Positions 1-23,164 of a DNA stretch of 64,000 bases are shown in pieces. Source of the stretch: Eledone cirrhosa (Eukaryota); the NCBI GenBank assembly GCA_964016885.1, contig OZ024741.1, forward strand, positions 143,964,001 through 144,028,000, written 5' to 3'. Position 1 is the stretch's first letter. Each line of letters starts with the position of its first letter. The notes below the pieces were generated by a model. That model searched no databases. It was not told the origin of the DNA and was given only the letters and a program-made list of their open reading frames with translations. Position numbers and translations under genes: made by a program.

Positions 1-170
1 CAAAATTTGACTTCACTCTTCCACCATCAAACTGCCATCTTTTGTCGAAATTCATTGGCACCAGAGCTGTAGAAGTAGGCTGTGTCACTATGTCTTGTGG
101 AGTACTCGACTCCTGCAAGTTGTCAGGAATGTTATTAATGAAAGGATCTAGTGTTGCTGATTCACTAAAT
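1..170 (-). CDS. Coding exon of an unidentified minus-strand gene, truncated by the window edge
   Basis: Strong acceptor TTTTCTTTTCCTTTTCCTTCTTCAG (AG at 172-171). After one completing base the frame is open to the window edge: FSESATLDPFINNIPDNLQESSTPQDIVTQPTSTALVPMNFDKRWQFDGGRVKSNF. Phase-compatible with the exon at 10092-10214. Confidence 0.6.
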
Positions 171-535
171 CTGAAGAAGGAAAAGGAAAAGAAAAAATTG
201 AGCATACTTTAAAGATTTACATGCAATGAATTGGCAAAATTGTTGGAACAACGGATAATTCAAATCCCTTCAATCTCAACTTTGCCTTTTGTCCTTTCAT
301 AAAAAAAATTATTATAAAAATATACCAGTCCAGTACTTGGGTTGGTTCTTCCTGTATATCTTTTTCTCACTTTCTCACTCTCCTTCTATGAAAGAAATCA
401 GTTGCATTCAGACTTGGAGAAAGATGGGCTCCGCTAAGTTTAGAATGCCCAAGACATGTCGTATGTCATTACAGTGCCCCTATGACTCCATTAGAAATTA
501 CATACTTTCAAATTACTTTCTGGAATAAGGTTTAA

Positions 536-858
536 CCCTTTTGTAACAATATTTCTAATGAAATACACTCTATTTTAATTAATTAATAAACAATTTTGAT
601 GGATTTACTAAAGTTATTACTAAGTCATTACTAAGATAGTAACTTAATAGATTGTTTAACTTTTGCTAGCAGGGAAAATATATGTTAAATTATGATAATT
701 TTTATATAAAATTATGTTGGAAGAGTTTAATTTAGATAGGAGCTCTTGGTTTTGTTTCATAGAACCAATCTGTGCTGATATGAAAAAAATAAATGTAAAA
801 TTATGAAGATGAAGTGATGTTGATAGTGTCAGTTTTAGCCAGATTGGTATCAAAAGAG
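536..858. mobile_element. piggyBac-like MITE (TTAA-CCCTTT...AAAG(A/G)G-TTAA)
   Basis: TTAA at 532-535 and 859-862 flank CCCTTTTG / CAAAAGAG ends. Related AT-rich copies lie near 7851-8504, 14900-15300, 56291-56840 and 62800-63011. Confidence 0.55.
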
Positions 859-1074
859 TTAATATACCATACTGTCTGTCAGAAGCAACATAAAGGAATT
901 TCCATGGAATTAATCTTTTTCATACCAGCCTGTCTGAAAGTGCCCTGGTTCTATGATACAAAACCTCCCATTTTAAAGTGCATATATTTAAATCAAAAAT
1001 TTTTCATCATACAGAAAGAGAGAGAGAGACCAACCTTTCATTGTGTAAAACAGAAATGGTAATTTTAAAAGCTA

Positions 1075-1425
1075 TTTTGTAGGTGTCATGACAAAAAGCA
1101 CTCAGCCATCACTGTAAAGGGGTCATGTAAGAGACACGACAATAAGCACCCAGTCCACACTGTAAGGTGGTCATGTAGGTGTTGCGACAAAAAGCACCCA
1201 GTCCATACTGTAAAGTGGTCGTGTAGGAGTCACGACAAAAAAACACCCAGTACACACTGCAAACATGGTTGGTGTTAGGAAGGGCATCCAGCTGTAGAAA
1301 TCTTGCCCAAAACAGTACTATATGACCAAGACACAGTCACCTGACCAAACTTGCCTCAGATAGGACAACTCGTCTAACCCATGCTAGCATGGAAAGTGGA
1401 CGTTAAACGACAATGATGATGATGA
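1075..1425 (+). mobile_element. 3'-UTR-only copy of RTE family B (internal ~45-bp tandem repeats, GGAAGGGCATCCAGC motif, (GAT)n tail)
   Basis: Same modules as the 3' ends of the RTE copies at 25210-25617 and 33806-34190. Confidence 0.7.
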
Positions 1426-2235
1426 TTCTTTTGAATCATTTGATACTGCCTCCCCTCCATTTCAAATAATATTCATATTCATATATTATAATGGAATTAA
1501 ACCAATTTATCACAGCTTTTTGCTATGTAAATAATTCTAGTAAACAGTTGACACTTGAAATAGAATACCTTTTTATATGTTTGTTTAGCTAACAATAGTA
1601 GTAAAATACTGTTTACAATAGGTACCTAGTTGTGTAACTCGTTAAATCTAATATACAGTCAATTAACAAAGCAGTCGTAACTAAACACGTTATTCTAATT
1701 CATGTGGGTTTTTTTTACCATTGTGTTTATGTTTTAAATGATGGGGGCGGAGTGATGTATTGTTTCTTTCATACATCTTTGTAGTGTTGCTAAAAGAATG
1801 GAATTTATCAAACCATGACTGCATGGGGGCTTATGACCTTTGTTTTTATAACAGCAGTAAGCTGGTGTCATTGTTCATGTGGTGTGGTGTAGTGTCAGAG
1901 ATAGATTAACCATTATGCAAAATAAGCACATGCTTAGGACATCACGGAAAAAGGGGCACCATTTTAATCAAATTAATTGTATTTATCATTCCCCGGCCCA
2001 TTTGTTTTTTTTTTGCAAACTTTATATATGGTGGACATCATAATCTTTTAAGCACTTAGGACCTCAAAAGGGCTTAATCCAGCCCTAGAGTAGGCTAAGG
2101 TTAGATTGTTGTTGTTATAGAGTAATAATTTATTATTATTAGAATTAGAAGGCCCAGTACCTTACAGTGACTACTAGTTTCATCCCAGTATGATATGAGT
2201 TTATAAATATCTATGTGTGCGTCTTTGGTGAAATC

Positions 2236-2480
2236 ATGTGGTTTAGCAGTGAGGATGTTCAGCTCATGATTGCAAGGTCATGTGTTTAATTCCTGGTAGT
2301 GTATTGTGTCCTTGAGTAAGACTCTTTATTTCATGTTACTCCTGTCCACTCAACTGGAAAAAAATGAGTTGTACCTGTAATTCAAAGGGCCAGCCTTGTC
2401 ACACACTGTGTCATGCTGATTATCTCTGAGAATGTCTTTGGAATGCTCAACCACTTGTATGTTAATTTCTCAAGCAGGCA
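2236..2480 (+). mobile_element. Degenerate tRNA-derived CORE-like SINE
   Basis: tRNA-like head followed by TGTGTCCTTGAGTAAGACTCTTTATTTCA, a block also seen at 48360, 49290 and 54135. Confidence 0.55.
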
Positions 2481-3648
2481 TTACTGTCATTCAACCCCTG
2501 AAACACTCATCATCAGTACTGACAGAGATCCAACCCCAATCTCCCCAAATACTACTCTGTAATAAGTTAGTTTTAGAACATGACTGTCAATTTAGGAGAC
2601 TCATGGTTTTGGTACATATAGTTCACAATGTTTATGTTGAAAGTGGATATGTTGTTATAAATCTGATTACAAACTGAATCTTGATAAGAGCAAAATCTTA
2701 CTTTTTTTTCTATTTTGTACCTAGACAGATTTAGTGTTAAATAAAATGAAATTTACAGCTTAAACTATACCTACACAAGGTTGCATCTCATAAAAAGTTT
2801 CTTGGGTGTTTTAATGATAGGGTCCCCAGTCCTATTGTGAAAAGTAATGTGAAATAGAATGCTATGCTGAAGAACACAACACACCAACCAGTCCAGGAAT
2901 TAAACCTGTGACCTTGTGATTGTGAGTCCAACACCCTAACCACTAGACTATGCTCCTTCACTATTTAGTGTTAAGTGTTCAACAGATTATACATTGGTTG
3001 TTAATCTTTTCATTTTATTAATATTGTACTAAATTACTGATTCAGCTTAAATTATGATTGTTTAATCTTGGTTTACCTTGGATTACCTTAAAAAACAAAG
3101 ATGTTGTAGTATCTGTTCTATAAATAGTCTTATAGAAGTTTATAACAAAAATAGTATTTCAGACATTGCTAAGGAAATATTAAACCTTCAGTTGTTGCAG
3201 CTGCTGTTGTTATTGTTGGAGGATTTTAACTCTTAACGTCCTGTACCACATTAAATCACTTAAGACATTTTTGGAAAGTACAAAACAGCACTCTGACTCC
3301 ATCACATTAAAAAAATAAAGTCTTTAGTCTAATACTGTACATTTTTACAATGATTTGTCCACTTGCAAAGATATAAACATTTGAGTTAACAACGTTTTAA
3401 TTTTCATTCTCCAATTAATTAACTCTCAATGTCCTATACTTCATGAAGTCACATTAGCACTATTTTCATCATCATCATCGTTTAACGTCAATTTTCCACC
3501 CTACATAGGTAGGACAGGCTGACCCTTTGGGAGAGATGGGGTCAAAGGATCATGTTTCGCTCACCCGAGGTTGGTTTTGGCTTTACAGTGTGGACTGGGC
3601 ACTTTTGTCTTGACACATACATGACCGCTATGGAAAGTACAAAACAAC

Positions 3649-6600
3649 ATCGTCATCATCATCATCATCATCATTTTATGTCTGCTTTTCTCTGCTTGCA
3701 AGGGTGGGACGGGTCCTATTCAGCACAGCATCTCTTCACTTGTCACAGTCCTTCGTCATCTCCACCGTGAGCTTCAGCGATCTGAGGTCTGCTCTCACCA
3801 CCTGCGCTCATGTTTTTCGTGGTCTACCTCTATCACGTCTTCCCTCAACTGGCATTTCCTGGCACTTCTTCACCCATCGGTCATCCTCCATACGCATCAC
3901 ATGTCCATACCATCGCAGTCTCCTCTCCCACACACAACAATTTAGTTTCTCTCTCAACACATCCATGCTCGGCCGTTCACGCACATTGACACTGCACATC
4001 CAACTGAGCATGCTTGCCTCATTTCTCTGCAGTTGCTGCCCATGTCTCACTACCATGCAGCATCACGAACCTCACACAGCCAACATATAACCGGTCTTGT
4101 GTATGCAGGGAGGAACCCTTCTTCGTCAGCAGAGGAAGCAGCTCCCTAAACTTCTTCCAACCTGTCCTTATTCTAGATACTATGGCCTCGGAACACCCAG
4201 CTCCCATGCTAATCTGATCTCTTAGGTACCGGAAGCTATCAACCACTTCTATAGTACTCACCTGCATTTGAAAAATGTGTCTATCAATACGACTTCTACT
4301 GTCTAATTTCTCTGTACATCTACTGCATACATATTTCTCCCTACCTGTTAGTTTGCCTGCTATCCCACTACATCTCTTGTGTACCCAAGATCTGCATTGT
4401 GTGCATTTTATAGAATTTATGCCAGTTCTTTTTCTGCATATCGAACATGGCCATTTCCCTAACGGAATCAGAATTTTGTCCTCTTTTCTACTCATCAACA
4501 CTTTTGTCTTAGCTAGGTTCACTCTCAGTCCTCTTGCTTCCAACTGCTGTTTCCATAGCCAGAATTTATTCTCTAGCTCCTCTACTGATTCTGCTATAAG
4601 AACCAGATTGTCAGCATAGAGAAGTTCCCATGGAACTCCTCTCTTATGGCTTGGAGGACTATAATGAACGAGAGCGGGCTGAGGACCAAACCCTGATGTA
4701 CTCCCACTTGTATCTGGAATTCGTCACTAAACTCCATTCCTAGCCTCACTTTACTGACAGCACCTCTGTACAAAGTTTGCACTGTCCTCACAAGCCATTC
4801 CTCAACACCTAGTTTACTTAGGGACCACCAGATGACAGATCGGGGTACCCTATCAAAGGCCTTCTCTAGGTCAACAAAAGCTAAGTATAGTAGCTTATTC
4901 TTCTCTAAGAACCTCTCTTGTAGTTGTCTGACAAAGAAGAGTCTTTGGGTATGACACTGCCATATATAGCCTGATTGATGATGCGTGCAACCAGTTTAGT
5001 GCCTACGTCTCCTGATGCCTTCAGCATATCAGCAACTATCCCCGATGGTCCAGCAGCCTTACCATTTTTCATTTCCTTAATCGTCTCTTGGACCCTATAT
5101 TCGTCAATCTCAATAGCTGGTCCCTTTGTCGGATCTACTGAGGGTAATTTCTCACTCTCCCGTTCGTTCTCCACATTCATCAATCTCTCGTAATGACATT
5201 TCCAGGCCTCCTTTTTCAGGTCATTCATGACACTAAGTACACCGGCATCATTCCGGACACATTTATCTCCAACAACATCCTGATTTGCATTGACACACTG
5301 CCTTGCAATGTGGAACACCGCACGTCTCTGATCTTTCCGTCGCAGAACATTGGCAAACCTTCTACTCTCAGCCTCCCTGTGTGCTAAGTACACCTGACAT
5401 CTAGCTTCTCTCTTAGTGGCTGTATATCCTTCTCTACTCCCACCCTTTTTCCAAGCCTTCCATGCTAGTCTTTTGTCTCTAATGGCCCTATCTACTGTGC
5501 TGTTCCACCACCAGGTCACTCTCTGTCTGGTTGGAGCTCTGCTCCAGCCACAAGTTTCATCAGTGGCCTGCAGTAAGTTGTCACATAAGAAATTCCAGTT
5601 ATCATCTATGTCATACGACTCTAAATCGTCTTCTTTTTCGTCATGCACATCTTGAAGGGCTTTCCTAAATTTGTATTTTAGTGAAAGGTCTTTTAGCTTC
5701 CAGACCTTTCTTCTCCACACCTTCCTGTATGTCTCATTCCGTCTCTTGCTTACTGAGATATCACTAACGACTAGCCTATGCTGTGGGGTACGTTCTTCCC
5801 CAGAGTATGCCTTTGTATTTGACACCATCTGCCTGTCCCGCTGCCTAACTAGTAAGAAGTCAATCTGGCTTATGTGCTTGCCTGATATGTAAGTTATTAG
5901 GTGGTTGGCAGGTTTCTGGAAGTTAGTGTTGCAAATGGTTAGTGTACTTACATCACAAAATTCAAGAAGTCTCACTCCTTCTTCATTTCTTGAACCATAA
6001 CCGTGCCCACTATGTACCCCAGTGTAACCATCCTGGAGCTATCCAACATGACCATTGAAGTCCCCTGCTAGCATAAGCATGTCTCCGGCCTCTGTCATTG
6101 CGGTTGTTTGTAAAAGTTGCTCGTAAAAGCAGTCTTTCTCATCTTTGCCTAGGCCTGCTTGGAGAGCATAGGCAGAGTTGATTGTCAGAAGTCTCTTGCC
6201 TACAACTAATCTAAGCTTAATTATTCTATTATTAACTCGAACTACCTCTATTGTCTTATCGATCCATCTCTCAGCCAGGAAAATGCCTACTACCCATAAC
6301 CCATCATCCTTACCTACCCAGAAAAGCTTATAACTAAGATGTTTGCCTCCGATTAGTCTTGCAGAGGCACCTCTCCATCTCACCTTGTGCATGCAGCACA
6401 CATCCACATGCCTTCTCTCCAGCATCTCTGCTATTTCACTAGATCTACCTGTGAGAGTGCCAACATTAAGTGTTGCAACTCTGAGATGCAACGTCTTTAT
6501 ATTCTTGTTCCTTTTCCTGTAGTGCGATTGATTGAAGACGGTCGGGGGGTTCTCGCACATGGCCGCACCAGTCACCCAACTACCGTGCATAGCACTAACA

Positions 6601-6716
6601 TGGTTAGTGTTATTGCTGTTTACACAGTTATTACGATATATATTTGTTGTTGTGCTCATAAATGTTTTGGCATTAATACACTGGTTGGATGCCCTTCCTA
6701 ACCAGTGTATTAATGC
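3649..6716 (-). mobile_element. Near full-length RTE-clade LINE (family A), frameshifted
   Basis: APE endonuclease motifs (LRVATLNVGTL, LAGDFNGHVG, SQIDFLL), RT motifs (FVDLEKAFD, GVHQG, LYAD), PHD finger, C-terminal RLRWYGHVMR..GRPRKT, and a (GAT)n tail at 3649-3673. Possible short TSD CAAAACA at 3640 and 6717. Confidence 0.92.
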
Positions 6717-7985
6717 CAAAACACTATAACAAAATTCATATGAAAATATCATATGAAAATTTCAAGTCTTTAGTTTACTTGCAAATCTTCACAATGATCT
6801 GTCCAGTAGTATACTGTAAAAAGTTGAATTAACAAACCACGTACAGTAAAACCACATTAACAAGATTGTCTTAGAAAGGAGACTACATCATATAAAAATT
6901 TAAAGTCTTTACTTTGGTTTACTTGCAATTGTTCACAATGACCTGTCCACATCTTACTTACATGCACTGCTACACTCTTCAGAGTATATTTTATCATGGC
7001 ACCAGCACTATTGAAGTTGTCATGTCTTGGACACAGCTGAAGTATGGTATGTTTGCTATGACTGGATACCTTTCCTATCACCAACCGCTTTACAGAGTGC
7101 ATTGGGTGCAGGAAATTTTCTCTTACACTATGATTCAGTTAATGTCTAGAGGAGATGTAACAAATGTTACAGAATAGAAAGTAAGTTTCTTGCAAGCTAA
7201 TTGAGTAGCATGCTTTCAACTCCTGGTTGTGTTGTCATTTACTATTTTGTCTGGGCTAAAACACAAACATCATAAGATCTCATTTCTCTGGCCTTTATCT
7301 AATATTTTAGCCTCTTACAATGATAAAGAAAAAATACAAAGACATACACATGCAAACACACAGCACAATCACATGCACAGCATAGTCACATGCATACACA
7401 CACTGACACACATGTCCATACATGGACATACATACAGACACAAATGCATGTACACACATATTTTGAATTGTCATCTGAAGATGTCTGTCAAAAAAACAAA
7501 ACAAAAAACCTACTGTTGCATTCCTATAAGATTGTAGGGTGGAAACAAAATTTGACAGCTGTCAGCCTGCAACAATAGAATAAATAGATAACCATATGTC
7601 AGTGTGTACCCAATTTCTGTGCTCAGTTTTTTATTAGTTACTTTCTTCTTTTGATACCAACCCACCTAAAATTGCCTCCGGTTCTATGAAACAACACTCC
7701 TTGCTTTCAACCCTCTGGTTGCCAATGAAAGACCATGCCTATGATTTTCAAATAATTTTGAAAATAATAAAAAATTTGGAAAGATTTAGTAAATAACTTT
7801 AAGTTTCTGATTATTAAGCTTATTTTGAATATGTTATTTTCCTCTTTTAGTTAACCCTTTCAATACCAACCTGCCCATAACCACCTCTGGTTTTAATGAA
7901 AACATTGCCTGTTTTTGAAATAATTTTTGAAATAATCAAACATTTTAAAAGATTTAGTAACTTTCATTATTTATCTAGTATTATA

Positions 7986-8172
7986 GGGCGGTGGATTGGC
8001 AGTATCGGTAGAGAGTCGGACGCCATGCTTTCCGGCGTAGTTACGTCCCTTTACGGTCTGAGTTCAAATCCCGCCGAGGTTGACTTTACCTTTCATCCTT
8101 ACGGGGTCGATAAAATAAAGTACCAGTAATGCACTGGGTAATTGCTGGCCTCGTGCCAAAAGTAGAAACAAT
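7986..8172 (+). mobile_element. tRNA-derived SINE family 1 (~190 bp)
   Basis: B-box-like GAGTTCAAATCCC, central CCTTTCATCCTTACGGGGTCGATAAAATAAAGTACCAG, and TSD ATTATTTATCTAGTATT on both sides. Confidence 0.9.
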
Positions 8173-9484
8173 TATTTATCTAGTATTTAAAACTTATCTT
8201 TCTGAAAGTTCTTACATAAAATTATGATGGAAGGTTTCTAGATAAATAAAAACACTTTGAAATAAATAGTTTTGTATCATAGAAACAAGGCAGTTTCAGA
8301 CAGTTTGGTATTGAAAGAGCAAACTTAAAATCTTCCAACATAATTTCATAAGAGTTTTGTTATGTTACAAATACCATCTTAATAATGAAATAAACACTTT
8401 TAGTAAATCCCTCTAAATTCTTCATTAATTTATCCAGCATGGATAAACGGATGTTAAATGATGATGATGAGTGCATTTTAGAAATATAGTAACAAAAGGG
8501 TTAACTTTAAACATCCTGTAATGATTTAGCTGCAAATATAAAAAAATGGGTTTGTTAATTTAAATGTTTACAGTATCTTTACTAGCAGACAGATTCTTGT
8601 GCAAATCTGTGGCATTAAGGTGAAGACTTTAATTTTTAATGTTATGCAGTCATAGTACTGTTTGTACTTTTCAAAAATATTTTGCTAATGCGGTTTTATG
8701 TGATACAATATATTAAGTGTTAAACAAATGGAAACACAGCTTTTTTTTAGTGAGAGTCTATGTATCAGCATCAAATAAATACACATTGAAAAAGCCTTTT
8801 GAGATAGAGATAATAGATAGCTCCTGGTGAACTGATTACATACAATATTAAATTTCCATATGAACACACACATTGTAATTCACATACGCATTCTGACTGA
8901 CAGTTGTACTTTTCACATTCTTTAAGCAACAGGGCCAGCACCTACATTTTAAGTGCACCCTTATTTTTAAATTTTAGTTTCTGCTATGTAGTAGCTACAT
9001 CTTTTATTAATACAAGATGTTTACCTTTAATTATTTTATAAAATATTCCCTGCTGAAATGAGGGAGTGTAATATATGTCTGTGGATCTGATATGCTATGA
9101 AACACTGTACCAGTTAGAAACAGCAGTCAAATCATCCTCAAATCCAACCCTATTTTCTTAACTGTAAACATTCTTTAATGATTTAGCTGAAAATATCTTT
9201 AAAAATTTAGTGTTAATTAAGTGAAAATATCTTTAAAAATTTAGCGTTAATTAAAATATTGAGTGTTTTTACTAAAGGATAGATAATTGTGAAAACTAGC
9301 AGTATTAGAGTAAAGGCTGTAATTTTTAATGTGATGCTATTTTATACTTTTCAAGAATATCTAGCTAATGTGAATTCCTGATATACAAAAAGATGGGATG
9401 GTCATGATAGGAATAATTTTGATCATAAGTCTTCTCAATCAGAGCTGACCAGCAGCTAAACAATGCAAAATCTCTCTCCCTCTC

Positions 9485-9551
<67 letters not shown>

Positions 9552-10091
9552 GAACTTAGTGTTTAATAATATCTAATGTGATTGTCTACCACCTTGTAGC
9601 CACTCTACTGCTCTTCAAGAAGTTAGATTATCTATAAAGGATTATAACTTTAATTATCACTTAGGTAATCAAAAATTGTCTAGAAGCATAGAAAAGTATA
9701 TAAGATTAAAAATATATGTACAGTTATATATATATATATTTATGTATGTATGTAGAAAGGGTTGTGAGATCATGGAATGGCACCTGAAAAGTTCCTCTCT
9801 ATAACACAAGCCTGGGAAAGCTGTCACCCATGCATGCAAATCATCCCTCACCACACTAATGATATTATTCAAGGAAGAGGCAAACGCCAGTATAGTTGGT
9901 CACCAGTCAAAATTAGAATGAAAAAGGCTGAAAAAGATATTGAAAATCAACATATTCAATGCTCTAACAATTCCACCACCCTTTAACTGGTTCTTTATTT
10001 ATCAACCCCTGCAAAGATAAAAGACGAAGTTGACTTCAATAGGATTTGAACTCAGTGCACAATATCGTTTGAAGTAATCTGGTTTACTTAC

Positions 10092-10214
10092 ATCATACAG
10101 TTCCACCAACAGGAGCAGAGATCACAGAGAGACATCAGTTTAGTGGATGGTGGACATTCCGCTAGTTTCTTCTGGCCCTTATTTGACTGTCCCGACATGT
10201 CTTGATATATAAGA
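10092..10214 (-). CDS. Putative first coding exon of the minus-strand gene (ATG at 10198)
   Basis: Acceptor AG at 10216-10215. Reads MSGQSNKGQKKLAECPPSTKLMSLCDLCSCWWNCM plus 2 nt, then a GTAAGT donor at 10091. Phase 2 joins in frame to exon 1-170. Confidence 0.5.
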
Positions 10215-10869
10215 CTATAATTATATATATGTATGTGTGTGTGTGGTTATTTATGTATGTTCTTTATAATGTGATGTGGTCTACTTATTTCAATGTATTG
10301 ATGATGGTTAATGATTAGCTATGACTTGTGGTTATACAGTTGTTTGTAATGGTATCCAGTAGTGTTGGTAGTTAGGCTGATAAGGTAGTGGTTAACCCTG
10401 GAACTAGATTACGATGGCATCTGGTGATTAAACTATATGGTGTGCTGGTTATAATGATGTTTTGGTGAATTCCTCCTATATAATAAAGAAGTAACCAAAC
10501 CACACACACACATGTATACAGTAAATATAATGGCCAACCTCTAGGTTCAACCGTCAGGTAGTGTCTGTCTCTCTTACTTACTGAGTTGTTTTAAACTGTT
10601 TGTAGTGATGAAGGAGGTGGGGGGGGGGGGCTTGATGCAGCAGGTGATGAGGATCAAGTGGTAGGCTAGTAGTTTGAGAATGGCCTGAGGTGTGTGTATA
10701 TGAATATGTGTCGGAGGAGGAGGTTCTAATCCCCCACATATATTAAGTGTATGTATGTTGTGTGTGTGTGTGTAATTATTATTGTCAGCACAGCTTCTTC
10801 AGTCATGTGGTGTCTTTGTTTCTATTGTTTAAAGGACCTAACACACCCAGTGTCTTGAGTTTTAATTGT

Positions 10870-11140
10870 GGATGGGGGATAATGTAATGTTGATGGAGGT
10901 AATGGTACTAGTCAGTGGTGGTGATGGTGGCAGAGAAGGAGGAAATGGTAGAAATGGTGGTGATGGAGGTAATGGGTGTGGTGGAGGTAATGGTGATTGA
11001 GGCAATAGTGGTGTTAGAAAAGGTGGTAGTGATGGAGGTAATGATGTTGGTGATCTTTGTTCTGGTGGAAGCAATAATGATGGTGGTGGTGGTGGTGGTG
11101 AATGGGTTGGAAATGTGGTGGGTGTTAGTGGAGTGAAAAC
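10870..11140. repeat. (GGT/GAT)n low-complexity tract
   Basis: Degenerate trinucleotide repeat that produces the Pro/Thr/Val-rich spurious ORFs. Confidence 0.85.
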
Positions 11141-11395
11141 ATTGTGGCACAGTTAATTATTTTGTTATTTGTTTCTATGTATTATTTCGACTTTTGAGTA
11201 TATTTCATATATATATACGCACATACATATGACATTGTATACATCTATCTATCTGTTTGTCTATCCTTCCATACATACAGTCCAATCTACCTATCCAGTC
11301 AAAACTATCTTTATATATCTATCTACCTATCCAAATTAACTCTATGTATCTTATTCAATCCAATCTTTCATGTATTTCTTTGATTTATTTTCCAG

Positions 11396-11647
11396 AATAT
11401 TCTCAAAGCTTTGAAACAGATTACAGAGGGACGTACAACGATTGTTATTGCTCACCGCCTCTCCACTGTAACTGATGCTGATGAGATTTTGGTTTTGGAT
11501 AAAGGGAGCATTGTTGAGAGGGGTACTCACCAATATCTGTTAAACCAACCCCATTCTCTGTATTTGTCCATGTGGCTTCGTCAGTCAATGAATCAGGATG
11601 ATTATGAGGAATTGATGAAATCTCAAGAGCAGAAAAGTGACTCTTAA
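11396..11647 (+). CDS. ABCB7: Last coding exon of the mitochondrial ABC transporter ABCB7 (Atm1-type)
   Basis: Acceptor TTTATTTTCCAG. Reads [53 protein letters not shown], with the ABC H-loop. The PHS.Y..MW tail fits ABCB7 better than ABCB6. Stop TAA at 11645-11647. Confidence 0.88.
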
Positions 11648-11944
11648 GGACCATAAACTCTAATTAATTGCCATAGGTTTGCACAAATTTTTTAAAGTAC
11701 CAAAATCTATGAAAAATCTTGTGATTGTATTCAGTAACAAAAATCAGTTAGTAAAGTTCACAAAATCAAAATCAAATATGTCTGTGTGTCACAGAAAGTA
11801 AGTTTTAATGTTTAGGGCCAGACCCTTTACCAGGTGAGCCAACAAACTTCTTATTTTTATCTCTGTTTAGAATATTACAGTTGTTTTTTTTTACCCTCAC
11901 AGCACCTGAAATATGTTTTTTTTTAACCTTTCCACAATTCATTA

Positions 11945-12255
11945 TTGCTATGTAATGTTGCTGCTGTTTTTTCTAACTATTTTTGCTGTAACTCTGCTGT
12001 CAGTGTCTTAACCCTCTCATACAATAGTAAGCATTGTAAGGCTATTTTCCCTGCTAAAGTAAAAGTTAGTCTTGTGAGCCCCAGGACAAATTTTTCCATT
12101 TTGCTCTATTCTCTACATACCCTTGCTTTCATTTCCTCTATCATATTTAGCCATATCTTTGTTGGTCTTCCCTTTTCTCTACTTCTTTCTCTATTCATTT
12201 CCATCACTTCTCTAACCGAATCATTTTCATCCTTCCTCAACACATAACCATAAAT
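11945..12255 (-). mobile_element. Old RTE-type LINE C-terminal fragment
   Basis: Reverse strand reads YGYVLRKDENDSVREVMEM..GRPTKIW. Similar segments occur at 55500-55890 and 60790-60930. Confidence 0.5.
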
Positions 12256-12730
12256 GCTTGTAGCACTGTAAAATCCATAAGATTACCAGCTGGTTTCATG
12301 CCAGGTGCAAATTTTTTATTGGTGTTAATTTGAAATATGAAAGGTAGCATCCATTACAGTAAGTATGTCCAATGAGGTAGATGGAGAACTAGAAACTTAT
12401 TCCATGAAGCAAGTACAGCTATATATAAGGTGAATGTACCATTTTTCATACTTAGAAATATTCCTCATCGACTATATACTATTTGATATAGTCACTGTAC
12501 ACACATCAGGAGCAATAGCTTAATATAAACAGATGATGAGTTGTCGCTCCTGGTTTGTCTCTTTACACTTCTCCTCCATTTACAATTTTTGTTTTTTTGT
12601 TTTAAATTCATCAATTAGCCACTTGTATACATGAAGGTCTCAAAATAATGTATATTATCTCAAAACAAATGTATATTATTGGCAACAAAAAAAAAATGCA
12701 CCTGGTATGAAACCAGCTGTTAACCTTATA

Positions 12731-12922
12731 TAATTGTTTCTACTTTTGGCACAAGGCCAGCAATTATCCAGGTGTATTACTGGTACTTTATTTTTACAAC
12801 CCCGTAAGGATGCAAGGCAAAGTTAACCTCGGCGGTATTTGAACTCAGACCATAAAGGGCCGTAACTCTTTGTTGCACAGCATGGCGTCCGACCCTCTAC
12901 CGATACTGCCATTCCACCGCCC
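12731..12922 (-). mobile_element. SINE family 1, in or near the ABCB7 3' UTR
   Basis: Reverse complement of the 7986 copy; TSD TGTTAACCTTATATAAT. Confidence 0.9.
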
Positions 12923-13203
12923 TATGTTAACCTTATATAATGTGTAACATCATTATCAAATAACTGTGTCTTGGACCTTTTTTGGTTCTGACGATGAGTG
13001 TTCCAGTTGATTGGTTAATGGTGCATCTTGCTCATAAAATTAACATGTTAGTGACTGTGCATTTCACAGACATGTATACCCTTAATGTAATTCTCAGGGA
13101 GATTCAGCATGACATAGTGTGACGAGATTGGTCTTTCCTATGAGTTATTTTGAGAATATACTTTTACCATTGTGAGTAATAATTATAATTTCATCATGGT
13201 GCT

Positions 13204-13263
<60 letters not shown>

Positions 13264-13267
<4 letters not shown>

Positions 13268-13339
13268 GTGTCCCCAAAACATGTATACACACTTTTATTA
13301 GAATGCTATTGAAGTGTGTATACATTTTGGGACACCCTG
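13264..13339. mobile_element. Tc1/mariner-type mini-MITE
   Basis: CAGGGTGTCCC...GGGACACCCTG inverted ends with TA on the right; second copy at about 23079-23150. Confidence 0.65.
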
Positions 13340-14104
13340 TATGTATGTATATATATATATCATTATCATACTTTTACATTCGTTTTTTTCTATGGGTTGG
13401 CCTGTAATATTATGATTTAAGAAGTGGGGAGAAAGAAATGATCAAAAATATAAACAATTTCCAATTGATCTATATTTTTACTGTATAAGTTAATTACTTG
13501 AATCATTATATAAATAAATAATGCTAAAATTCACCTGTGCAAATGCTATAAGCATTTGCTCTTCATTCATAAATTCTTATAATTCTCTGAAAATAATTTC
13601 AGTGTTCCGAAGGAGCTGGACAAATAAAGACTACAAAATGTAAATTATGTTAATAAATAATGGTATATCTATAATGTCATATCTCTCGGTATTCAAAATC
13701 TATAAATGGTTATGATTTGATTACCAATTCCATTTCTCTATTATTATAAAAATAAATTAGTTTCATTTCTTCCTCTCTGTCTTTACCTACTGAAGAATAT
13801 TTCTTATTCAAACTTGCATTATCTTTGACATGCTTTAACAAATTGTATTTTTGTAGCTGGAGATAGATTTAATATTTTAACCTCACCATAATTAATTTAA
13901 TTTATTTACAAGGGTCCATAAAAGCAGAGCATAACTTTAATTTTTGTAGCATATGGCAGCGGAAAGATCTGGTATTTAAATCCTTCCCCTATATTTTCAT
14001 CACGAATCTTTTAGACATAGCTGCATCTTAATAATAATAATAATGATCAGGTGCACTACAACTCGTCAAAGGTGCATGTATAGTACATAGAATAATATAC
14101 AAAT

Positions 14105-14470
14105 GTCATCATCATCACCGTTTTACGTCCGTTCTTCCACGCTAGCATGGGTTAGACGGGTTGTCCTGTTGTGGGCAGTGTCTGGTCGGCTGACCATGCC
14201 TTGCTCATACAGGAACTGATTTGGCTTGATTTCTACAGCTGGATGCCCTTCCTAACACCAACCTCATTTGCAGTGAGTGCTGGGTGCTTTTTCGTGGCGC
14301 CTACACGTCCACTTTACAGTGTGGGCTGGGTGCTTTTTTGCCGTGGCACCTCCACGACCACCTTGCAGTGGGGGGTGTGGGGGCATATTGTCTATATGCT
14401 TCAGCTTGTACCCATGGGAGGTCGGGTACTCTGTATTACTGCGTGACGCCGGAAGTCACGGTCAGGGAAG
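14105..14470 (-). mobile_element. 5'-truncated RTE family B (3' UTR)
   Basis: (CAT)n tail, CTGGATGCCCTTCCTAAC motif and tandem units; nearly the same as 59210-59580. Confidence 0.75.
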
Positions 14471-15005
14471 TGAATAGTGTGAGTCATGATATACATGTGT
14501 GCATGTGTATGGAGGAGGAATATTAGGTGTAGTGTTGGCGAATCTCAGGAAGCATGGAGGTCTCAACAGCTCTTAAGGTGTATTTTCTCATCCATCAATG
14601 ATCATTACTCATAGACAGTTTTCCTCCTTGCTGGAAGATGTTTTTTGTCAGACGTTCATAGTTTCTTCATATAATGTTTTTATCATTCTCAACAAGGTCT
14701 TTTGTTTGTAGCTATATTAATTTAACTGAGTGAACATGTAGATCCCCAAAATGCTTTTGTGACCATATTTTTAATGAACCAAAGTCTATTTCAATTAATT
14801 AATCAAGAGTTTTGAGGGATTTACTAAAATTATTTCATTATTGATATAGTAACTTAATATATAAATTTTGTATCAAGTTAAATTTAAATAGGGATCTTTT
14901 AATCCCTTTGTTACCATATTTATAATAAAACATTTATGATGAAGGATTGAAAGGAATGTACTAAAATTATTTATCATTTCATTAACAAAAAGTTCTTGTA
15001 TCAAA

Positions 15006-15196
15006 TAATTGTTTCTACTTTTGGCACAAGGCCAGCAATTACCCAGTACATTACTGGTACTTTATTTTATCGACCCCGTAAGGATGAAAGGCAAAGTTAA
15101 CCTCAGCGGGATTTGAACTCAGAATGATAAGGGCCGTAACTCTATGCGTCAAAGCATGGCGTCCGACCCTCTACCGATACTGCCAATCCACCGCCC
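15006..15196 (-). mobile_element. SINE family 1, inserted in a piggyBac-like MITE
   Basis: Full-length copy; TSD CTTGTATCAAATAAT. Confidence 0.9.
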
Positions 15197-16121
15197 TTGT
15201 ATCAAATAATGTTGGAAGGTATTAATTTAAACAGGAACCCTTTAAAATGGGTGATTTTGATTCGTAGACCCAGAGGCAGTTTTAGCATCAAAAGGGTTAA
15301 ATTGACCTCAGATGGAATAAAGGCAAACTTGACATCAGCATGATTTAAATTAAGAATGTAAAATAATTTCTACAGATTGTTTTTAATCTACTGATTCTAC
15401 TAGCCTACTACTTTGTGGTAGAAAAGAGTTGATCTCCAAACGAAGGAAATTCAGAACTCAGTTTCAATAACAATTACCATATTTCTAATGAAAATCACTG
15501 CCTATTATTTTCAAATGATTTTGAAAATAATCAAGAATTTGGTGGGATTTATTGATGCAACTTAGCTTCTCATTATTATGTCTGTAACATAACTTGTCAA
15601 ATGTTCTTATATAAAATTATGCTGGAAGGTTTTCAGATAAATCGAAACAATTTAAAATAAAGTTTGATATTGTAGAACCAAGAGTAACTTTGTATTAAAA
15701 GCTTTAAAGGTTACAAGATGTGACTTCTGCTTGATGGAGTTCTGATATTGATTATGTGATTGTAAGCATTCTACAGTTGAGTTTCGTTATAGATTAGTTT
15801 TTAGGTTAAATGAAAAAAATAATCTTGATATATACTAATTCTTATTTGTTGATTTTTTTTTTTTAATTTGATTTATTTTCATGTCAAGGATCTTGAGACT
15901 AATGAATAAATTATTATTGTTATTGATGTTGTTATATTTCTTTTTAAAGTAGTGAAGTAGCAGTATTGGTAGAACACCAAAGTAATTACCTTTTAAGATT
16001 TCATTCAGTCTACTTGTTCTTGGTGAAAATCTCTAGCGGTACTAGTTGTGTGATATATATTACTTTTCACACACATACACTCGACTCGGTTCCAGCATAT
16101 TCATAATCTCTCCTGACTTAC

Positions 16122-16196
16122 CTTTCAGGCTGATGTTGATGGATGTTGAAAGTGGGTGGATAGGTTAGTATGTATGTCCCTGAACACAGCTAATTT
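16122..16196 (-). other. Putative 75-nt non-coding exon of the minus-strand transcript
   Basis: Near-consensus acceptor TTGTTTCTCTCTCTTTTAG and donor AAG|GTAAGT; stop codons in all three frames. Confidence 0.6.
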
Positions 16197-16480
16197 CTAA
16201 AAGAGAGAGAAACAATCTCAGTACTGATTGCAAAAGGATGAAAGGTAAAGCTAACCTCAGCAGGATATAAACTCAGTGCAGAGTTGGAATGAATACCAGT
16301 GGAATATTGTGGGAAGCTGGACAGTTCTTTGGTCATCACATCATTACGAAAATATCTCATCATGAAGAGTAAGGCACCAGAGGTATATATAGAGATAGAT
16401 AACATACATATGAGTGGGGTGCTGACCAGTTTTTTGCTTAACTAATTTCCTGTCACTGCAGCTGGAAAGAATGTTTTTAT

Positions 16481-16514
<34 letters not shown>

Positions 16515-17575: not shown

Positions 17576-17628
<53 letters not shown>

Positions 17629-18139: not shown

Positions 18140-18255
18140 GCCACCTTGGTTTATACACAGGGTTTGGATTTTTGCCTATTTCTTAAACATAAAATGGTGG
18201 TGATGAGGGAGTTTGGCTTATATTCAGATCAGTTTATACACGAGTATATATGGTA
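18140..18255. mobile_element. Degenerate Tc2/pogo-like DNA transposon end
   Basis: GGCTTATATTCAGATCAGTTTATACACGAGTATATATGGTA resembles the ...TATACxCGAGTATATACGG-TA termini of Tc2/pogo-like elements. Confidence 0.35.
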
Positions 18256-19566
18256 AATTCACAGTTGACAAACATCTAATTAAAGACCATATATACGAGG
18301 AATCTTCTTGGTTTCTTCCAGATAATATGAAGTTGTGTAAAGGTGAGATGATTGAATGGATAAGATTTTGGACTATCTACTCATAGGATGAAATGCTATT
18401 TCAATACCAAACATGTTATATAAAAACTGGATTGTTACCCAGAATTTAAACATTATCTCAAAACTAAGGTGTTCGAGTAGAGAGAATACGTTGATGTTCA
18501 GCAGTGGTATGGATACACTGGTTCTCATCTGACTCTCCCTGGCTCAAGAACATTTTTCAACCACACCCAGGTAACTGCTTCTACTGGCAGGCTAAACTTG
18601 ATGAGAGGCTGGATCCTTGGAGAGATGATGGACACTGCCATGCATTTCTAAGGCTCACTGAAATGCCATGATAGACAAACAGTCTAGAATAGAACCCTAA
18701 TGACTGGCTGCACCAGTTGCAGGAAGTTGATTGATTGACTCATAGGTGATCATCCAAATCTGTGACATTCATTTCATTGTATTCCTGGACTTGAACATCC
18801 TTCTACCTATTAGGGAAAAGGTAAAAGATTATTTATGAAATGTTACCTGTGATAAGCTGGTTTCCTCTCCAACAAAAGATTCATCTTATTGGCATCACAT
18901 CATAGAACTAGAACTAAATGATAATGACGACAGGCCCCCATTTTCATTTAGTATCTACATTGCTTAAGGCAGTAAGCTGTGACTATCAAATAGGAGAACT
19001 AAGCTTGATCAAAGGGATGTTGTCTTATAAGGACCATTTAAAAAAAGAGTGGCATAAAAATAAACTTTATGCTCCAACAATGGGGCCTCTACACATAACT
19101 ATAAGCAGTAGCTAAATCTGCATCAATTCACACTCTACTATCTTAAAAAGAAAAAACACACTGGTTAATATAGTCTTAGATACACAGTCTGAAAAAAACG
19201 ACAGATTGTCTTGACTGGGTGACCTTTGATTAAAGGGGCTAAAATGGGACTTAATAGAGCTTAAAAATCAAAGATTATCTTGTATGATTTTATATTAAGC
19301 ATGGATCAACAATAAAACACCTGTGAATTATTTAATGTTCCTATTGCTTATGGCAGTAAGCTGAATCTTTCATGATTTTTAGCTAATTACAGGTATGAGG
19401 ACTAAACATGGATGATTTGTTTTATAAGAACTATGTTCATAGGTGACAAAAAAGAAATTAAAATCAAAAAGCTAAAACAACAGTATAAGAGAATTTCTCA
19501 CATAATACACATTTATTTCTGAGATTTTTCCATATTTACCAGGTCCAGGAATGACTACAGAGTCTG

Positions 19567-21642
19567 TTATTTATAAATAAAATCTTCCTGGAAATTATTT
19601 GCTGTAACAAAGCAGTCTATCACTTTATTGTTAAATTCCTTTATTTTCCTCACCATGTTATATTCCAGTGACACCATACCCAAAGCAGTCAGTTTATCAA
19701 TTGCTATAGAGTTCCGTAAAAAGGATTTGATTTTCTGTAAAGTCTTAAAACATCTTTCTGTTTCCTCAGTTATCATTGGAGTGGTAATTAGTATTTTTAT
19801 AAGTTTGACAGTTTCAGAGAATGTTGCTTGTAGGTTATTATCATTAAAAAAACTTAATAAATCTACTAGCTTCTCAGTTTGGTATATATCATTTCTGGCA
19901 TAAAGGATGGAAAGCTCAGTTCCAAGTTTTTCTCTATCAAGCATAGGATATGCATCAACAGCTTGAGTTAGCTCATAGTTAGGAAATTTTGAGAGAAAGG
20001 AAGAAAAGTTATCCCGCACAAGCAGCTTGCTTGCTTCCAAATGATTAATAAAACTTAATCTTTCACTACATTTCAGTAAAATTATATCACACACTTCCTC
20101 TATGAGAGCTACCTTATCTGGACAATATTTTCTCCGGCTATTTTCTGTACAGTTATCTTTACCATCCTCATATTCACTGCGAATGGTTTTTATGATGTGG
20201 TAGAAAGAACTTAAAGAGATGGTAGCTTTTCTAACATCAATGCTTTTGTATGCAAACTGGGAAAATAATTCATCAATATGAGGCATCACTTTAGAGAAAA
20301 AATTGAGCCAGAACTCAAAATCAGTATCATTCAATATCCTCTTTATGGCCGAGGCTTCAGTTCCTATTTCAGTTAAAGTCGTTTGTTCTAATAGATCACA
20401 ACATATTTTTAAAGTATCTTTCATGGCATGAACAGCATTAATTGTGAATATGATATTGGTATCTTTTAAACTTATAGAAGATGGCATTGCCATTTGTCCT
20501 AAAATCTTCTCCAGTACTTCTGATCGTGAAAAAAAAGTTGAAATGCTTGATATATCACTGAAAAATACTTTCATGCTGCTATTTTGCCATGTTGCTTTCT
20601 GAATAATTCCACTGTGTTTGTGTGCATAGCAATGAATAAAGTGAGCATTTTTATACTGTTCTTTCATTAGTGTATGAACATTTGTTTTATCTCCACTTAA
20701 ACTCACTGCACCATCATATGTTTGAGCAATAAGCATACTAGGGCAATCGGGTATCAAGCCATACAGTTCCCTTTGCAGCATTTCTGTCAAAGCACCAACT
20801 GTTCTATCAACAGGATTGAAAAATCCCCAAAACCTTTCTACAGGTTTCCCATTTATCATATATCTTAGAACCACTGCCACTTGCATTTTATCACAAACAT
20901 CAACTATATCATCACACATAACAGCCAAAAATTCTGTACGTCTTATCTCTTCCTTGATTTGAATTTGACAAACATTGAGCATAGCTTCTAAAAGTTTATT
21001 CAAAATGGCTTGTGATACACCTTCTAAAACAGTAATTGAACTGATGTCTAATCTAAAACTAGAATCCAAATCACTCATGTACTCAATTAGACCTTCAAAT
21101 ACATTCAAACTTTTGTCCAAATCTGTGTGGTCTAGTCCTCGAATTAGTAAATTATATTCTCCACAGAATTTCAAACAATTTATGATTTTGTGGAGGACAT
21201 TTCTATTTCTTTTCACCCATTCATTGTGCTTTGTAACTGCAAGTTTGTTATCCTGGTGTTGAGGGCCAGAGCAGGGTGGGAGACCCAAAAGTGTGAGATT
21301 TATGACGTTATTCATGTGCTTGCTGGATTGTTCATGTTTTTTTATCTTCTGCAGAAGTTGTCTTAAATCACTGACTCCAGTTTCTGTCCAAAGAACATCC
21401 CCACCAAATAATAAACATGGGTAACAATATAATGCATTTGATTCTTCACAGCCACAGAGCCAAATACACTTATCGTAAATGTTACAGTTGAATTGCCTCA
21501 CGTATTCAATACTTCTGCTGGTACCACATGGTTGCATATTTAAACTTGGCATCGGCCTGCCGAAAGACTTAATTTCAATCTGTTCATTAAGTTTCAATTT
21601 ACTGAAATATATAGTTTGTAGATGCTTCACTTTGTTTGACAT
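19567..21642 (-). CDS. Intact hAT-transposase-derived ZMYM1-like protein (691 aa), probably domesticated
   Basis: Uninterrupted ORF from MSNKVKHL. TTF-type zinc finger (WLCG..LYCYPCLLF..KHEQSSKH), DUF4371-like segment (LAVMCDD..LRY..ERF), QTYDGA, HCYAH and hAT dimerisation motif (TPM....ERCF..L..IK). No TIRs seen. Confidence 0.85.
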   Translation of the reverse strand: MSNKVKHLQTIYFSKLKLNEQIEIKSFGRPMPSLNMQPCGTSRSIEYVRQFNCNIYDKCIWLCGCEESNALYCYPCLLFGGDVLWTETGVSDLRQLLQKIKKHEQSSKHMNNVINLTLLGLPPCSGPQHQDNKLAVTKHNEWVKRNRNVLHKIINCLKFCGEYNLLIRGLDHTDLDKSLNVFEGLIEYMSDLDSSFRLDISSITVLEGVSQAILNKLLEAMLNVCQIQIKEEIRRTEFLAVMCDDIVDVCDKMQVAVVLRYMINGKPVERFWGFFNPVDRTVGALTEMLQRELYGLIPDCPSMLIAQTYDGAVSLSGDKTNVHTLMKEQYKNAHFIHCYAHKHSGIIQKATWQNSSMKVFFSDISSISTFFSRSEVLEKILGQMAMPSSISLKDTNIIFTINAVHAMKDTLKICCDLLEQTTLTEIGTEASAIKRILNDTDFEFWLNFFSKVMPHIDELFSQFAYKSIDVRKATISLSSFYHIIKTIRSEYEDGKDNCTENSRRKYCPDKVALIEEVCDIILLKCSERLSFINHLEASKLLVRDNFSSFLSKFPNYELTQAVDAYPMLDREKLGTELSILYARNDIYQTEKLVDLLSFFNDNNLQATFSETVKLIKILITTPMITEETERCFKTLQKIKSFLRNSIAIDKLTALGMVSLEYNMVRKIKEFNNKVIDCFVTANNFQEDFIYK

Positions 21643-23164
21643 TGCAGTTGAGAAGGAATAAAGCAACTAGTAGTAGAAAACTGAACAGAATTGTGCAACT
21701 GGTGGAAGGGATTGTAAGCGGAGAAATTAGCATTGGATGAATCGGCAACTTGTGGATTTGATAGGAGAGAGAGAATACAAGAATACAGCGAAACAAAAAA
21801 AGTATAGTATATAGCAAATTAACACACACACATATATATATATATATATGAGAGAGAGAAAGAGAGAGTTATGAACAATAACGTTGGAGGTATCAGAAGA
21901 AATTGGATAGACGCTAGCAGTGGAGAAGCAATAGGGAAAACATCTGCGGACGAACTGCGTGGGACCTTGGGAATTTGACAATAGGGAATCTAAAAGGAGA
22001 TATGAGAAAGGAGAAAAGCTGAAAGTTGGTTGATACGGAGAAAGAGTATAGTAAAATAAGGCACATACATATATATTCAGAGAGAGAAAGTGTGAGGGTG
22101 TGTGTGTGTATGAAAAAAGCGATGACATTCCAGTAATGCACTGGGTAATTGCTGGCCTTGTGCCTAAAGTAGAAACAATTATTTCGGATATATAAACGGA
22201 GAAAAAACAACAATGTATTATCAACGAAACAGCAGAGAGAGAGAGAGAGAAAGAGATACTAGCAGTGAAAGAGCCGGCAACTTGAAAAAGAATGTAGGGA
22301 AAGTGAAAGAAGTGACAAGGGGGAGAAACTACTATTTGAAACGGACCATAAGCAATACAGTTTATATATATATATATATACAAAGTCAAGAATAGTAAGA
22401 TAATTCTATATCACAACAACTACAATAATTTTTAAGTGAATTAGAAGCAGAAAACGGACATATCAATAACATCGATAATAATAGCAACAACATGATATTA
22501 AAGCATGGTAGTAAATATGTAAGAAATCGTTCGTGGAGTATGTGTTACTAATTCCTTTCAGATGTTGCAACAATAACATGTGTTGGGCTGCATTAAATAA
22601 AGAAAACCCAAAATAAACCCTCATCATCCCAATCAGTGCTTGTTTAGTTTTATAATTTCATTGGTTCATTTAAAAGAGCTAATATTTTTCTTGTTTCGCA
22701 TTTTTAACCTTATTCTCTCGACAACGTCCGCTTTTTCTCTATCTCTGTCTTTCTCTCTCTGCCCTTCTCTCATTGTTTGTTTGCAATCTCTCTCTTTCTC
22801 TCTATCACTCTCTATCTATATATCCATCGTTAATTATCTGTTAATACATTTTCACATTACATAACTCTTTATCTATATAATACGCAAGATGGACCATAAT
22901 TACCTTATTGATTACAAAGAAACTTAGTGCAGCATTTCGGATATTTAATATAATTATGTAAACTTACATGAATTGCAGTGTATAACTTTCGGAATAAAGT
23001 TTAACTTCATTATGGATTCTTTTATATTTCCATTTCTTAACAGTAAGTAAATTATGGCCTAACCTGCATGTATATATACATGTGTCCCTAAAATGTATAC
23101 ATACTTCAGCATTCTAATAAATATGTGTATATATTTTGGGGGGACACCCTGTACATGTACTACA

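What the first reader, a model, noticed from the sequence alone, without database searches (positions are those of the whole stretch)
1..21666. Candidate bicistronic or cassette transcript: a hAT-derived ORF in the leader of a second gene
Seen on the minus strand: an acceptor (TTCAGTTTTCTACTACTAG, AG at 21668-21667) 24 nt before the hAT-ORF ATG, and a donor CTG|GTAAAT only 27 nt after its stop (exon 19540-21666). Downstream are a near-consensus non-coding exon (16122-16196), an ATG exon (10092-10214, phase 2) and a phase-matched exon (170 to the window edge). Inference: one locus yields either a two-ORF mRNA or, by skipping the 2.1-kb exon, the downstream protein alone. This would be a transposase exapted as an alternative exon sharing a host promoter, comparable to ZBED6/ZC3H11A or PGBD3/ERCC6.
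Basis: partly seen in the sequence, partly recalled or inferred. Interest (0 to 1): 0.75.

Follow-up and report, generated by a model that had tools for sequence, protein, structure and literature searches.

The report
Tamed octopus transposase beside nested gene
An octopus-lineage gene made from a hAT transposase that has likely stopped jumping sits just upstream of a small conserved gene hidden, antisense, in the last intron of an ABCB7-like transporter gene; the two are likely transcribed separately, and the proposed shared two-protein mRNA remains untested.

Summary
Both genes are real; the link between them is not shown. The 691-aa ORF (19567-21642, minus) is a domesticated hAT gene. It has no close copy in the genome, has orthologues in three Octopus species and Argonauta (72-83% identity), and all six octopod sequences lack the RW-motif tryptophan that 99 of 104 relatives keep. 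The 10214 acceptor is weak, and an RNA-like contig runs through it to 10480; a better acceptor lies at 10475. The 19540 donor is mediocre and is followed 22 nt on by AATAAA with a U/GU-rich tract. Exon 16122-16196 scores as a real exon. Best reading: separate transcripts (0.55). Shared promoter with the hAT ORF as an alternative last exon: 0.3. Regular two-ORF mRNA: 0.1.

The parts
19567..21642 (-). Intronless 691-aa domesticated hAT transposase gene (TTF-type zinc finger/DUF4371/hAT dimerisation type). Keeps D244, D310, E629 and C338xxH341; has Asp394 where relatives have the RW-motif Trp
   Evidence: ORF; Pfam; Atlas 0.98 to ZMYM1-like clusters; next paralogue 26% identity; orthologues; motif counts and tree; positions
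19512..19517 (-). Predicted poly(A) signal AATAAA, 50 nt after the hAT stop, followed by a U/GU-rich tract
   Evidence: downstream U/GU score ranks 5 of 67 minus-strand AATAAA sites; prediction only
19534..19542 (-). Candidate donor CTG|GTAAAT (last exonic base 19540); mediocre, use not shown
   Evidence: rank 126 of 4215
21667..23700 (-). Likely promoter/leader region of the hAT gene: CT-rich, CpG o/e 0.72 against 0.26 in the ORF; start site not mapped.
   Evidence: inference
16122..16196 (-). 75-nt non-coding exon candidate with strong splice sites and no ATG; single copy; partners unknown
11396..11647 (+).
   Evidence: translation; best single-stretch match human ABCB7, 73.6 bits; nine upstream exon hits in order; splice sites; X4 contig 26 leaves the genome at 11393
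11648..16040 (+). Likely 3' UTR of the ABCB7-like gene; end approximate
   Evidence: X4 contig pieces at 11393-12754, 13374-14074, 14532-14838, 15230-15536, 15522-15838 and cover to about 16035; that they form one transcript is inferred
1..11395 (+). Window part of the 14.3-kb last intron of the ABCB7-like gene (begins at window coordinate -2909, in L021)
   Evidence: CAG|GTAAGA and TTTTCCAG|AAT, phase 0
10092..10480 (-). ATG exon of the small gene: CDS 10198-10092; transcribed sequence reaches at least 10480; best acceptor at 10475, not 10214
   Evidence: (X4 contig 25); orthologue N-termini
1..170 (-). Start of the last exon of the small gene; CDS runs on to a stop at L021:9615-9613, with AATAAA at L021:9512 and 9500; protein 154 aa

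Best explanation
Three genes share this stretch: a single-copy hAT-derived gene that is likely immobile and likely ends at its own poly(A) site just behind its stop, an ABCB7-like gene on the opposite strand, and a small conserved gene whose coding exons lie antisense inside that gene's last intron and which is likely driven by a promoter of its own. Shown: the three reading frames, their orthologues, the nesting of the small gene's coding exons, the loss of the RW tryptophan, and an unbroken contig across 10214. Inferred: the hAT mRNA is a one-ORF mRNA cleaved near 19490; the small gene starts either near 10480-10500 inside the ABCB7 intron or in 16.2-19.5 kb, using exon 16122-16196 and the 10475 acceptor. 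Inferred function of the hAT protein: a nuclear DNA-binding, dimerising factor like other domesticated hAT proteins, no longer able to integrate DNA; residual nicking is not excluded because the DDE triad and CxxH are kept. The small protein has no known family; its invariant Cys-rich N-terminal motif and a basic, coiled-coil-like C-terminus suggest an adaptor (lead only).
For: Domestication: no match above 42% identity elsewhere in the genome, best full-length paralogue 26% (stricter first look). Orthologues in O. vulgaris, O. bimaculoides, O. sinensis and Argonauta. The 6 octopod rows form one branch (support 100) with stem 0.66 and short tips (quick tree of 36 rows). Trp in 99 of 104 other sequences and 0 of 6 octopod ones. 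No terminal inverted repeat pair and no repeat family at the ORF's immediate flanks. Separate mRNAs: AATAAA at 19517 with a U/GU tract ranking 5 of 67; donor 19540 rank 126 of 4215; distinct gene identifiers in O. sinensis (LOC118766195, LOC118766349); X4 contig 25 ends at 10480 in genomic letters, with no other letters attached; a 4.4-kb antisense exon lies between the genes; a two-ORF mRNA would put 57 ATG triplets (all frames) and about 2.5 kb ahead of the small ORF.
Against: Exon 16122-16196 is the only minus-strand exon candidate of its score, and the only plus-strand one as good is an MRPL21-like coding exon that was not in the training set. Its donor needs a downstream acceptor, and the best in the next 6 kb is 10475, just ahead of the ATG exon. 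CpG depletion is continuous from the ABCB7 body to 21.3 kb (0.15 in 16197-19539, 0.13 in 10476-11395; 0.42-0.81 in 9 of 9 bins of 24-54 kb) and rises only upstream of the hAT ORF, so no CpG-rich promoter is visible for the small gene. This is weak: some octopus genes are methylated across the promoter and past their end (PMC9476566, passages). Contig 25 stops 5 nt beyond the 10475 acceptor, which fits an unspliced precursor as well as a nearby start site. Separate annotation does not exclude a shared promoter.
Confidence: 0.55

Rival explanations
1. Shared promoter, alternative last exon. One minus-strand promoter upstream of 21.7 kb feeds both genes. Transcripts either enter the hAT exon and are cleaved at its poly(A) site, or skip it and splice first exon > 16196-16122 > 10475-10092 > 170, crossing the ABCB7 3' UTR antisense. 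Each mRNA carries one ORF.
For: Strong exon 16122-16196 and strong acceptor 10475 fit each other; exon 16122-16196 has no ATG; CpG depletion ends only upstream of the hAT ORF; poly(A) signal right behind the ORF, as for PGBD3 (PMC2268245 passages); order conserved in octopods.
Against: X4 contig 25 ends in genomic letters at 10480 with no exon attached. No first exon was identified; candidate donors at 22968, 23064 and 22904 are unproven.
Confidence: 0.3
2. One reading: the hAT ORF is a cassette exon spliced through the 19540 donor to 16196, giving a regular two-ORF mRNA, with skipping giving the small protein.
For: A GT donor 27 nt after the stop is the best in 19300-19570; exon 16122-16196 is strong; ZBED6/ZC3H11A shows that one RNA can hold both a hAT ORF and host exons (PMC2780926 passages).
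Against: Donor score 6.2 is below all nine training donors (7.4-13.0), and such a donor occurs within 60 nt by chance with P about 0.11. A poly(A) signal follows 22 nt into the would-be intron. The 10214 acceptor is contradicted. The second junction would lie 102 nt after the hAT stop, beyond the 50-55 nt decay rule known from vertebrates (recalled; untested in cephalopods).
Confidence: 0.1
3. The ORF is a young or still active hAT element that lies by chance beside unrelated genes.
For: Intact ORF with DDE triad and CxxH; relatives at about 50% identity keep the transposase motifs.
Against: No close copy, no terminal repeats, same neighbour in Octopus and Argonauta, 19 family-conserved residues lost in all 6 octopod sequences.
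Confidence: 0.03

Closest known systems
ZBED6 in ZC3H11A (placental mammals)
   Same: Intronless, single-copy hAT-derived ORF fixed at one locus across a clade (PMC2780926, passages).
   Different: ZBED6 has BED fingers, lies in intron 1 of its host, and is expressed from an intron-retaining host transcript from a mapped common promoter. Here the protein is of the TTF/DUF4371 type, and neither a host exon upstream nor a common transcript is shown.
PGBD3 in CSB/ERCC6 (primates)
   Same: Transposase ORF with a splice acceptor shortly before the ATG and AATAAA shortly after the stop (PMC2268245, passages). The 24 nt from the 21666 acceptor to the ATG are in frame and open (699-aa open frame).
   Different: PGBD3 is piggyBac, keeps terminal repeats, and fuses in frame to upstream coding exons. 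Here no upstream coding exon was found, orthologues are annotated from the same Met or a later one, and the acceptor is weak.
ZMYM1-like / TTF-DUF4371 hAT transposases and genes derived from them
   Same: Domain set DUF4371, hAT dimerisation; Atlas score 0.98; about 50% identity to proteins such as one from Homarus.
   Different: The octopod branch has lost the RW tryptophan and 18 other family-conserved residues and is fixed beside ABCB7.
Kat1 of Kluyveromyces lactis (domesticated hAT nuclease)
   Same: Domesticated, with DDE and CxxH retained (PMC4763223, passages).
   Different: Kat1 keeps the tryptophan (W576) and has a known target. Its W576A mutant still cuts but barely does strand transfer, so the octopod protein would more likely nick or bind than integrate.
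Nested antisense intronic genes (general class; recalled)
   Same: A two-coding-exon gene inside one large intron of a housekeeping gene on the other strand.
   Different: No report of such a gene in ABCB7 was found (one search).

Membership tests
hAT transposase superfamily (derived from) | DDE triad, CxxH motif, C-terminal dimerisation region | tested here: met
   D244, D310, E629, C338xxH341 in 6 of 6 octopod rows; PF05699 E 2.7e-4, just under its curated cut-off
hAT transposase superfamily (derived from) | RNase H-like fold matching Hermes | tested here: inconclusive
   Structure job did not finish; profile search of PDB sequences gave 0 hits at E<=1
Active hAT transposon | Conserved tryptophan of the RW motif | tested here: not met
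   0 of 6 octopod rows against 99 of 104 others; equating it with Hermes W319 rests on recalled motif position
Active hAT transposon | Terminal inverted repeats and several near-identical copies | tested here: not met
   No terminal pair in 18500-24000 among the 25 longest of 187 pairs shown; best full-length paralogue 26%
Domesticated transposase gene | Single copy, intact, at an orthologous locus across species | tested here: met
   synteny inferred from equal contig lengths and near-adjacent accessions, not from aligned genomes
Domesticated transposase gene | Purifying selection (dN/dS < 1) | not testable with these tools
   No orthologue DNA held; long stem and short tips are consistent
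Domesticated transposase gene | Expression | tested here: inconclusive
   Four X4 contigs cover 1146 of 2076 ORF bases; the run's kind is not on record and flanking DNA also has some cover (345 of 3343 bases)
ZBED6/ZC3H11A-type shared transcript | One RNA holding the transposase ORF and host exons | tested here: inconclusive
   No joint listed for X4 in 15600-22120, but nothing covers 19524-19741
ZBED6/ZC3H11A-type shared transcript | Common promoter mapped | not testable with these tools
   Only contigs are available; CpG profile is suggestive at most
PGBD3/ERCC6-type exon trap | In-frame fusion to upstream host coding exons | tested here: not met
   No host-gene Pfam hit on the minus strand upstream among the ORFs scanned (188 of 287 ORFs of 50 aa or more); orthologues start at the same Met or later. 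Short exons could be missed
PGBD3/ERCC6-type exon trap | Acceptor before the ATG and poly(A) signal after the stop | tested here: inconclusive
   Poly(A) signal good (5 of 67), acceptor weak (431 of 4187)
ABCB7/ATM1 half-transporter | Membrane domain followed by one nucleotide-binding domain, closest to ABCB7 | tested here: met
   Ten exon hits in order over residues 19-603 of a bacterial relative; last exon's best single stretch is ABCB7. No tree against ABCB6 was built
Myb/SANT-like (MSANTD) proteins, for the small gene | Myb/SANT-like DNA-binding domain | tested here: not met
   No Pfam family at E<=1 in two full-length orthologues; Atlas scores 0.77-0.81 to such clusters are below the 0.9 lead threshold

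The most novel reading that the evidence does not exclude
An octopod-wide domesticated hAT gene was captured in the leader intron of an older coleoid-type small gene and shares its promoter. Splicing versus early polyadenylation chooses between the two proteins, and the long form must read antisense through the whole last exon and 3' UTR of ABCB7, tying three genes into one regulatory unit. A two-ORF mRNA through the 19540 donor would be a minor product.
Probability: 0.3. Interest if true: 0.55.

Novelty: new member of a known kind. Interest (0 to 1): 0.33.

Why it matters
It adds an apparently undescribed, octopod-wide domesticated hAT gene with a clear loss-of-transposition signature, and an unnamed small gene nested in ABCB7, both easy to test in existing Octopus transcriptomes. 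If the promoter proves shared, it would be an invertebrate parallel to ZBED6 and PGBD3 and show how a transposase gains expression from a host leader. If not, it is an ordinary tandem and nested arrangement.

Tried and rejected
Run search: no RNA holder listed; 4 runs of one study. X4 is taken as RNA only by inference (88 million letters against about 1400; two contigs leave the genome at splice sites that X2 contig 9 crosses unbroken). Junction test: no joint in 15600-22120, but no cover at 19524-19741, and 13 loose ends and 32 pieces were not shown, so this is no evidence either way. A loose end at 21615 looked like an upstream exon; it maps to contig C4 and not to the 40 loci then held, so it is a chance match. 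An upstream exon ending in the same five letters as contig 25's end was sought; no convincing donor. Longer or fused forms of the small protein: none at E<=1 (weak). Metagenome scans for either gene: nothing. Structure prediction never finished, so no fold search was run. Earlier findings: none. Literature: no paper holds the gene or protein identifiers, nor octopus + domesticated + hAT transposase, nor 3 of 4 terms on bicistronic domesticated transposases, nor ABCB7 + nested gene + intron + antisense. Identifiers absent from 3 searched supplement files of PMC9712504 (one picture PDF not searchable) and 5 of PMC10027918; data tables not held there, and bioRxiv supplements, may bear on expression. 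Rejected: fusion of the last exon to a Myb/SANT domain upstream (orthologues are 156-158 aa with the same N-terminus); ORF 21727-22128 (low-complexity, no Pfam hit).
Full report
Setting. The window lies on contig C2 of a 3.0-Gb genome. Homologues of both genes studied are from octopods, so the animal is an octopod by inference. Coordinates below zero refer to the neighbouring stretches L021-L023.

The observation. All motifs are at the stated places. To ask whether they exceed chance I trained a small splice-site matrix on 9 donors and 9 acceptors from local genes and ranked every minus-strand GT and AG. Exon 16196-16122 is strong: donor 3 of 4215, acceptor 13 of 4187. It is the only minus-strand exon candidate of that score; the only plus-strand one, 62535-62587, encodes an MRPL21-like peptide and was not in the training set. 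The sites bounding the hAT exon are weak (acceptor 21666: 431 of 4187; donor 19540: 126 of 4215), as is the 10214 acceptor (334 of 4187). The matrix is crude, and the threshold for 'as good as this exon' was set after the fact.

The hAT ORF is a domesticated gene. It is 691 aa and of the ZMYM1-like, DUF4371/hAT-dimerisation type. The genome search found no close copy; the best full-length paralogue is 26% identical (a stricter first look was used). Orthologues occur in O. vulgaris, O. bimaculoides, O. sinensis and Argonauta hians at 72-83% identity, and the next relatives are at about 52%. I aligned the 110 of 124 sequences of 600 aa or more. All 6 octopod rows keep D244, D310, E629 and CxxH, but none has the RW-motif Trp that 99 of 104 others keep; 19 positions conserved in at least 90% of the others are lost in all 6, and 94 are kept. 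A quick tree of 36 rows (the 6 plus the first 30 other hits) puts them on one branch, support 100, stem length 0.66. One of the six (P0001) is unnamed but clusters with Octopus proteins. No terminal inverted repeat pair appeared, and the immediate flanks are not a repeat family. In Kat1, losing the matching Trp leaves cleavage but nearly abolishes strand transfer (PMC4763223, passages); the residue mapping to our protein is my inference. So the protein likely binds DNA and dimerises without integrating, and may still nick.

The downstream gene is real. Its last exon encodes 118 aa and ends beyond the window edge; with the ATG exon the protein is 154 aa. Orthologues of 156-158 aa exist in O. 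sinensis, O. bimaculoides and Argonauta, with an invariant Cys-rich stretch running across the 10092>170 junction. More distant unnamed relatives at 56% and 42% exist (4 of its 6 hits are credible, 2 are repeat-like), so this gene may be older than the hAT domestication. It has no Pfam family; Atlas scores towards Myb/SANT-like clusters are under the lead threshold. It is single copy.

A contig of run X4 leaves the genome at 11393, at a plus-strand acceptor. The exon behind it encodes the C-terminus of an ABC transporter whose best single-stretch match is human ABCB7. Two bacterial relatives map nine further exon hits in order from -25973 to -2910, with canonical splice sites. The last intron spans -2909 to 11395, so both coding exons of the small gene are nested antisense in it. 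X4 contigs cover most of 11393-15838, and cover reaches about 16035; I read this as the ABCB7 3' UTR.

RNA evidence. No listed run is on record as RNA. X4 behaves like RNA, by inference. Its contig 25 matches 10092-10480 exactly and has 388 other letters beyond 10092. This supports the donor and contradicts the 10214 acceptor. The contig ends 5 nt past the best acceptor in 10093-16121, at 10475, in genomic letters. That fits a start site near 10480-10500 or an unspliced precursor of a 16122>10475 intron; I cannot separate the two. The 19540>16196 junction could not be tested, because X4 does not cover the donor. Four contigs cover 1146 of the 2076 ORF bases.

Shared or separate? For separate mRNAs: AATAAA at 19517 with a U/GU-rich tract (5 of 67), the weak donor, separate gene identifiers in O. 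sinensis, the end of contig 25, and the intervening antisense exon. For a shared promoter: the strong non-coding exon, the strong 10475 acceptor, and CpG depletion that runs unbroken from the ABCB7 body to 21.3 kb and lifts only upstream of the hAT ORF. Octopus methylation marks gene bodies, but some genes are methylated across promoters and past their ends (PMC9476566, passages), so the CpG point is weak. My odds are judgement: separate 0.55; shared promoter with the hAT ORF as alternative last exon 0.3; regular two-ORF mRNA 0.1. In the last case the small ORF would sit behind about 2.5 kb holding 57 ATG triplets, so a skipped form would be needed anyway.

Comparison. ZBED6 lies in intron 1 of ZC3H11A and is made from an intron-retaining transcript with a mapped common promoter (PMC2780926, passages; PMC5910864, passages). 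PGBD3 is an alternative 3' terminal exon fused in frame to CSB (PMC2268245, passages). The locus resembles ZBED6 as a fixed single-copy hAT ORF and PGBD3 in its acceptor and poly(A) layout, but the defining shared transcript is untested and no fusion partner was found. A survey of transposon-derived transcription factors covers Octopus ZBED genes (PMC10027918, passages and supplement search); the four accessions searched are not in its supplements. Searches found no description of this gene pair; subscription papers are not covered.

Verdict. Observation partly confirmed, interpretation partly supported. A new member of a known kind (domesticated hAT gene) beside a nested antisense gene, with a testable 0.3 chance of a shared promoter. 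Interest 0.33.

Noticed in passing
window 61005-61220 and 62535-62587 (+): Two exons of an MRPL21-like gene (Pfam L21p E 2e-4), in a CpG-poor stretch from 55 kb on.
   Followed up: partly
window 51705-52391 (+): 228-aa ORF with an ISXO2-like transposase domain (PF12762, E 1e-6), probably a Merlin-type element remnant (name recalled).
   Followed up: no
window 4019-6752 (-), 24351-25202 (+), 28854-29435 (+), 32808-33518 (-), 34337-36301 (-): Broken LINE-like pieces; 34337-35518 has reverse-transcriptase and PHD-finger hits.
   Followed up: no
L002 and L003 (G000 C15 and C9): Two intact 724-aa hAT ORFs that keep the RW motif and CxxH; possibly young elements of another subfamily.
   Followed up: partly
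P0121, P0123 (orthologues of window 19567-21078): RefSeq models in O. bimaculoides and O. sinensis both start at the Met near residue 188 (503 aa), while other models are full length. Unexplained; X4 covers 21115-21609 unbroken here.
   Followed up: no
Argonauta accessions GAB1607525.1/GAB1607527.1 and GAB1610582.1/GAB1610584.1: The gene pair occurs on two scaffolds, each with one accession between; the middle one is probably ABCB7 (not checked).
   Followed up: no
window 16234-16276 (-): A SINE-like fragment, shared with several copies in the window, lies just upstream of the 16196 acceptor.
   Followed up: no
window 42218-45034: Long low-complexity tandem arrays giving spurious ORFs on both strands.
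   Followed up: no
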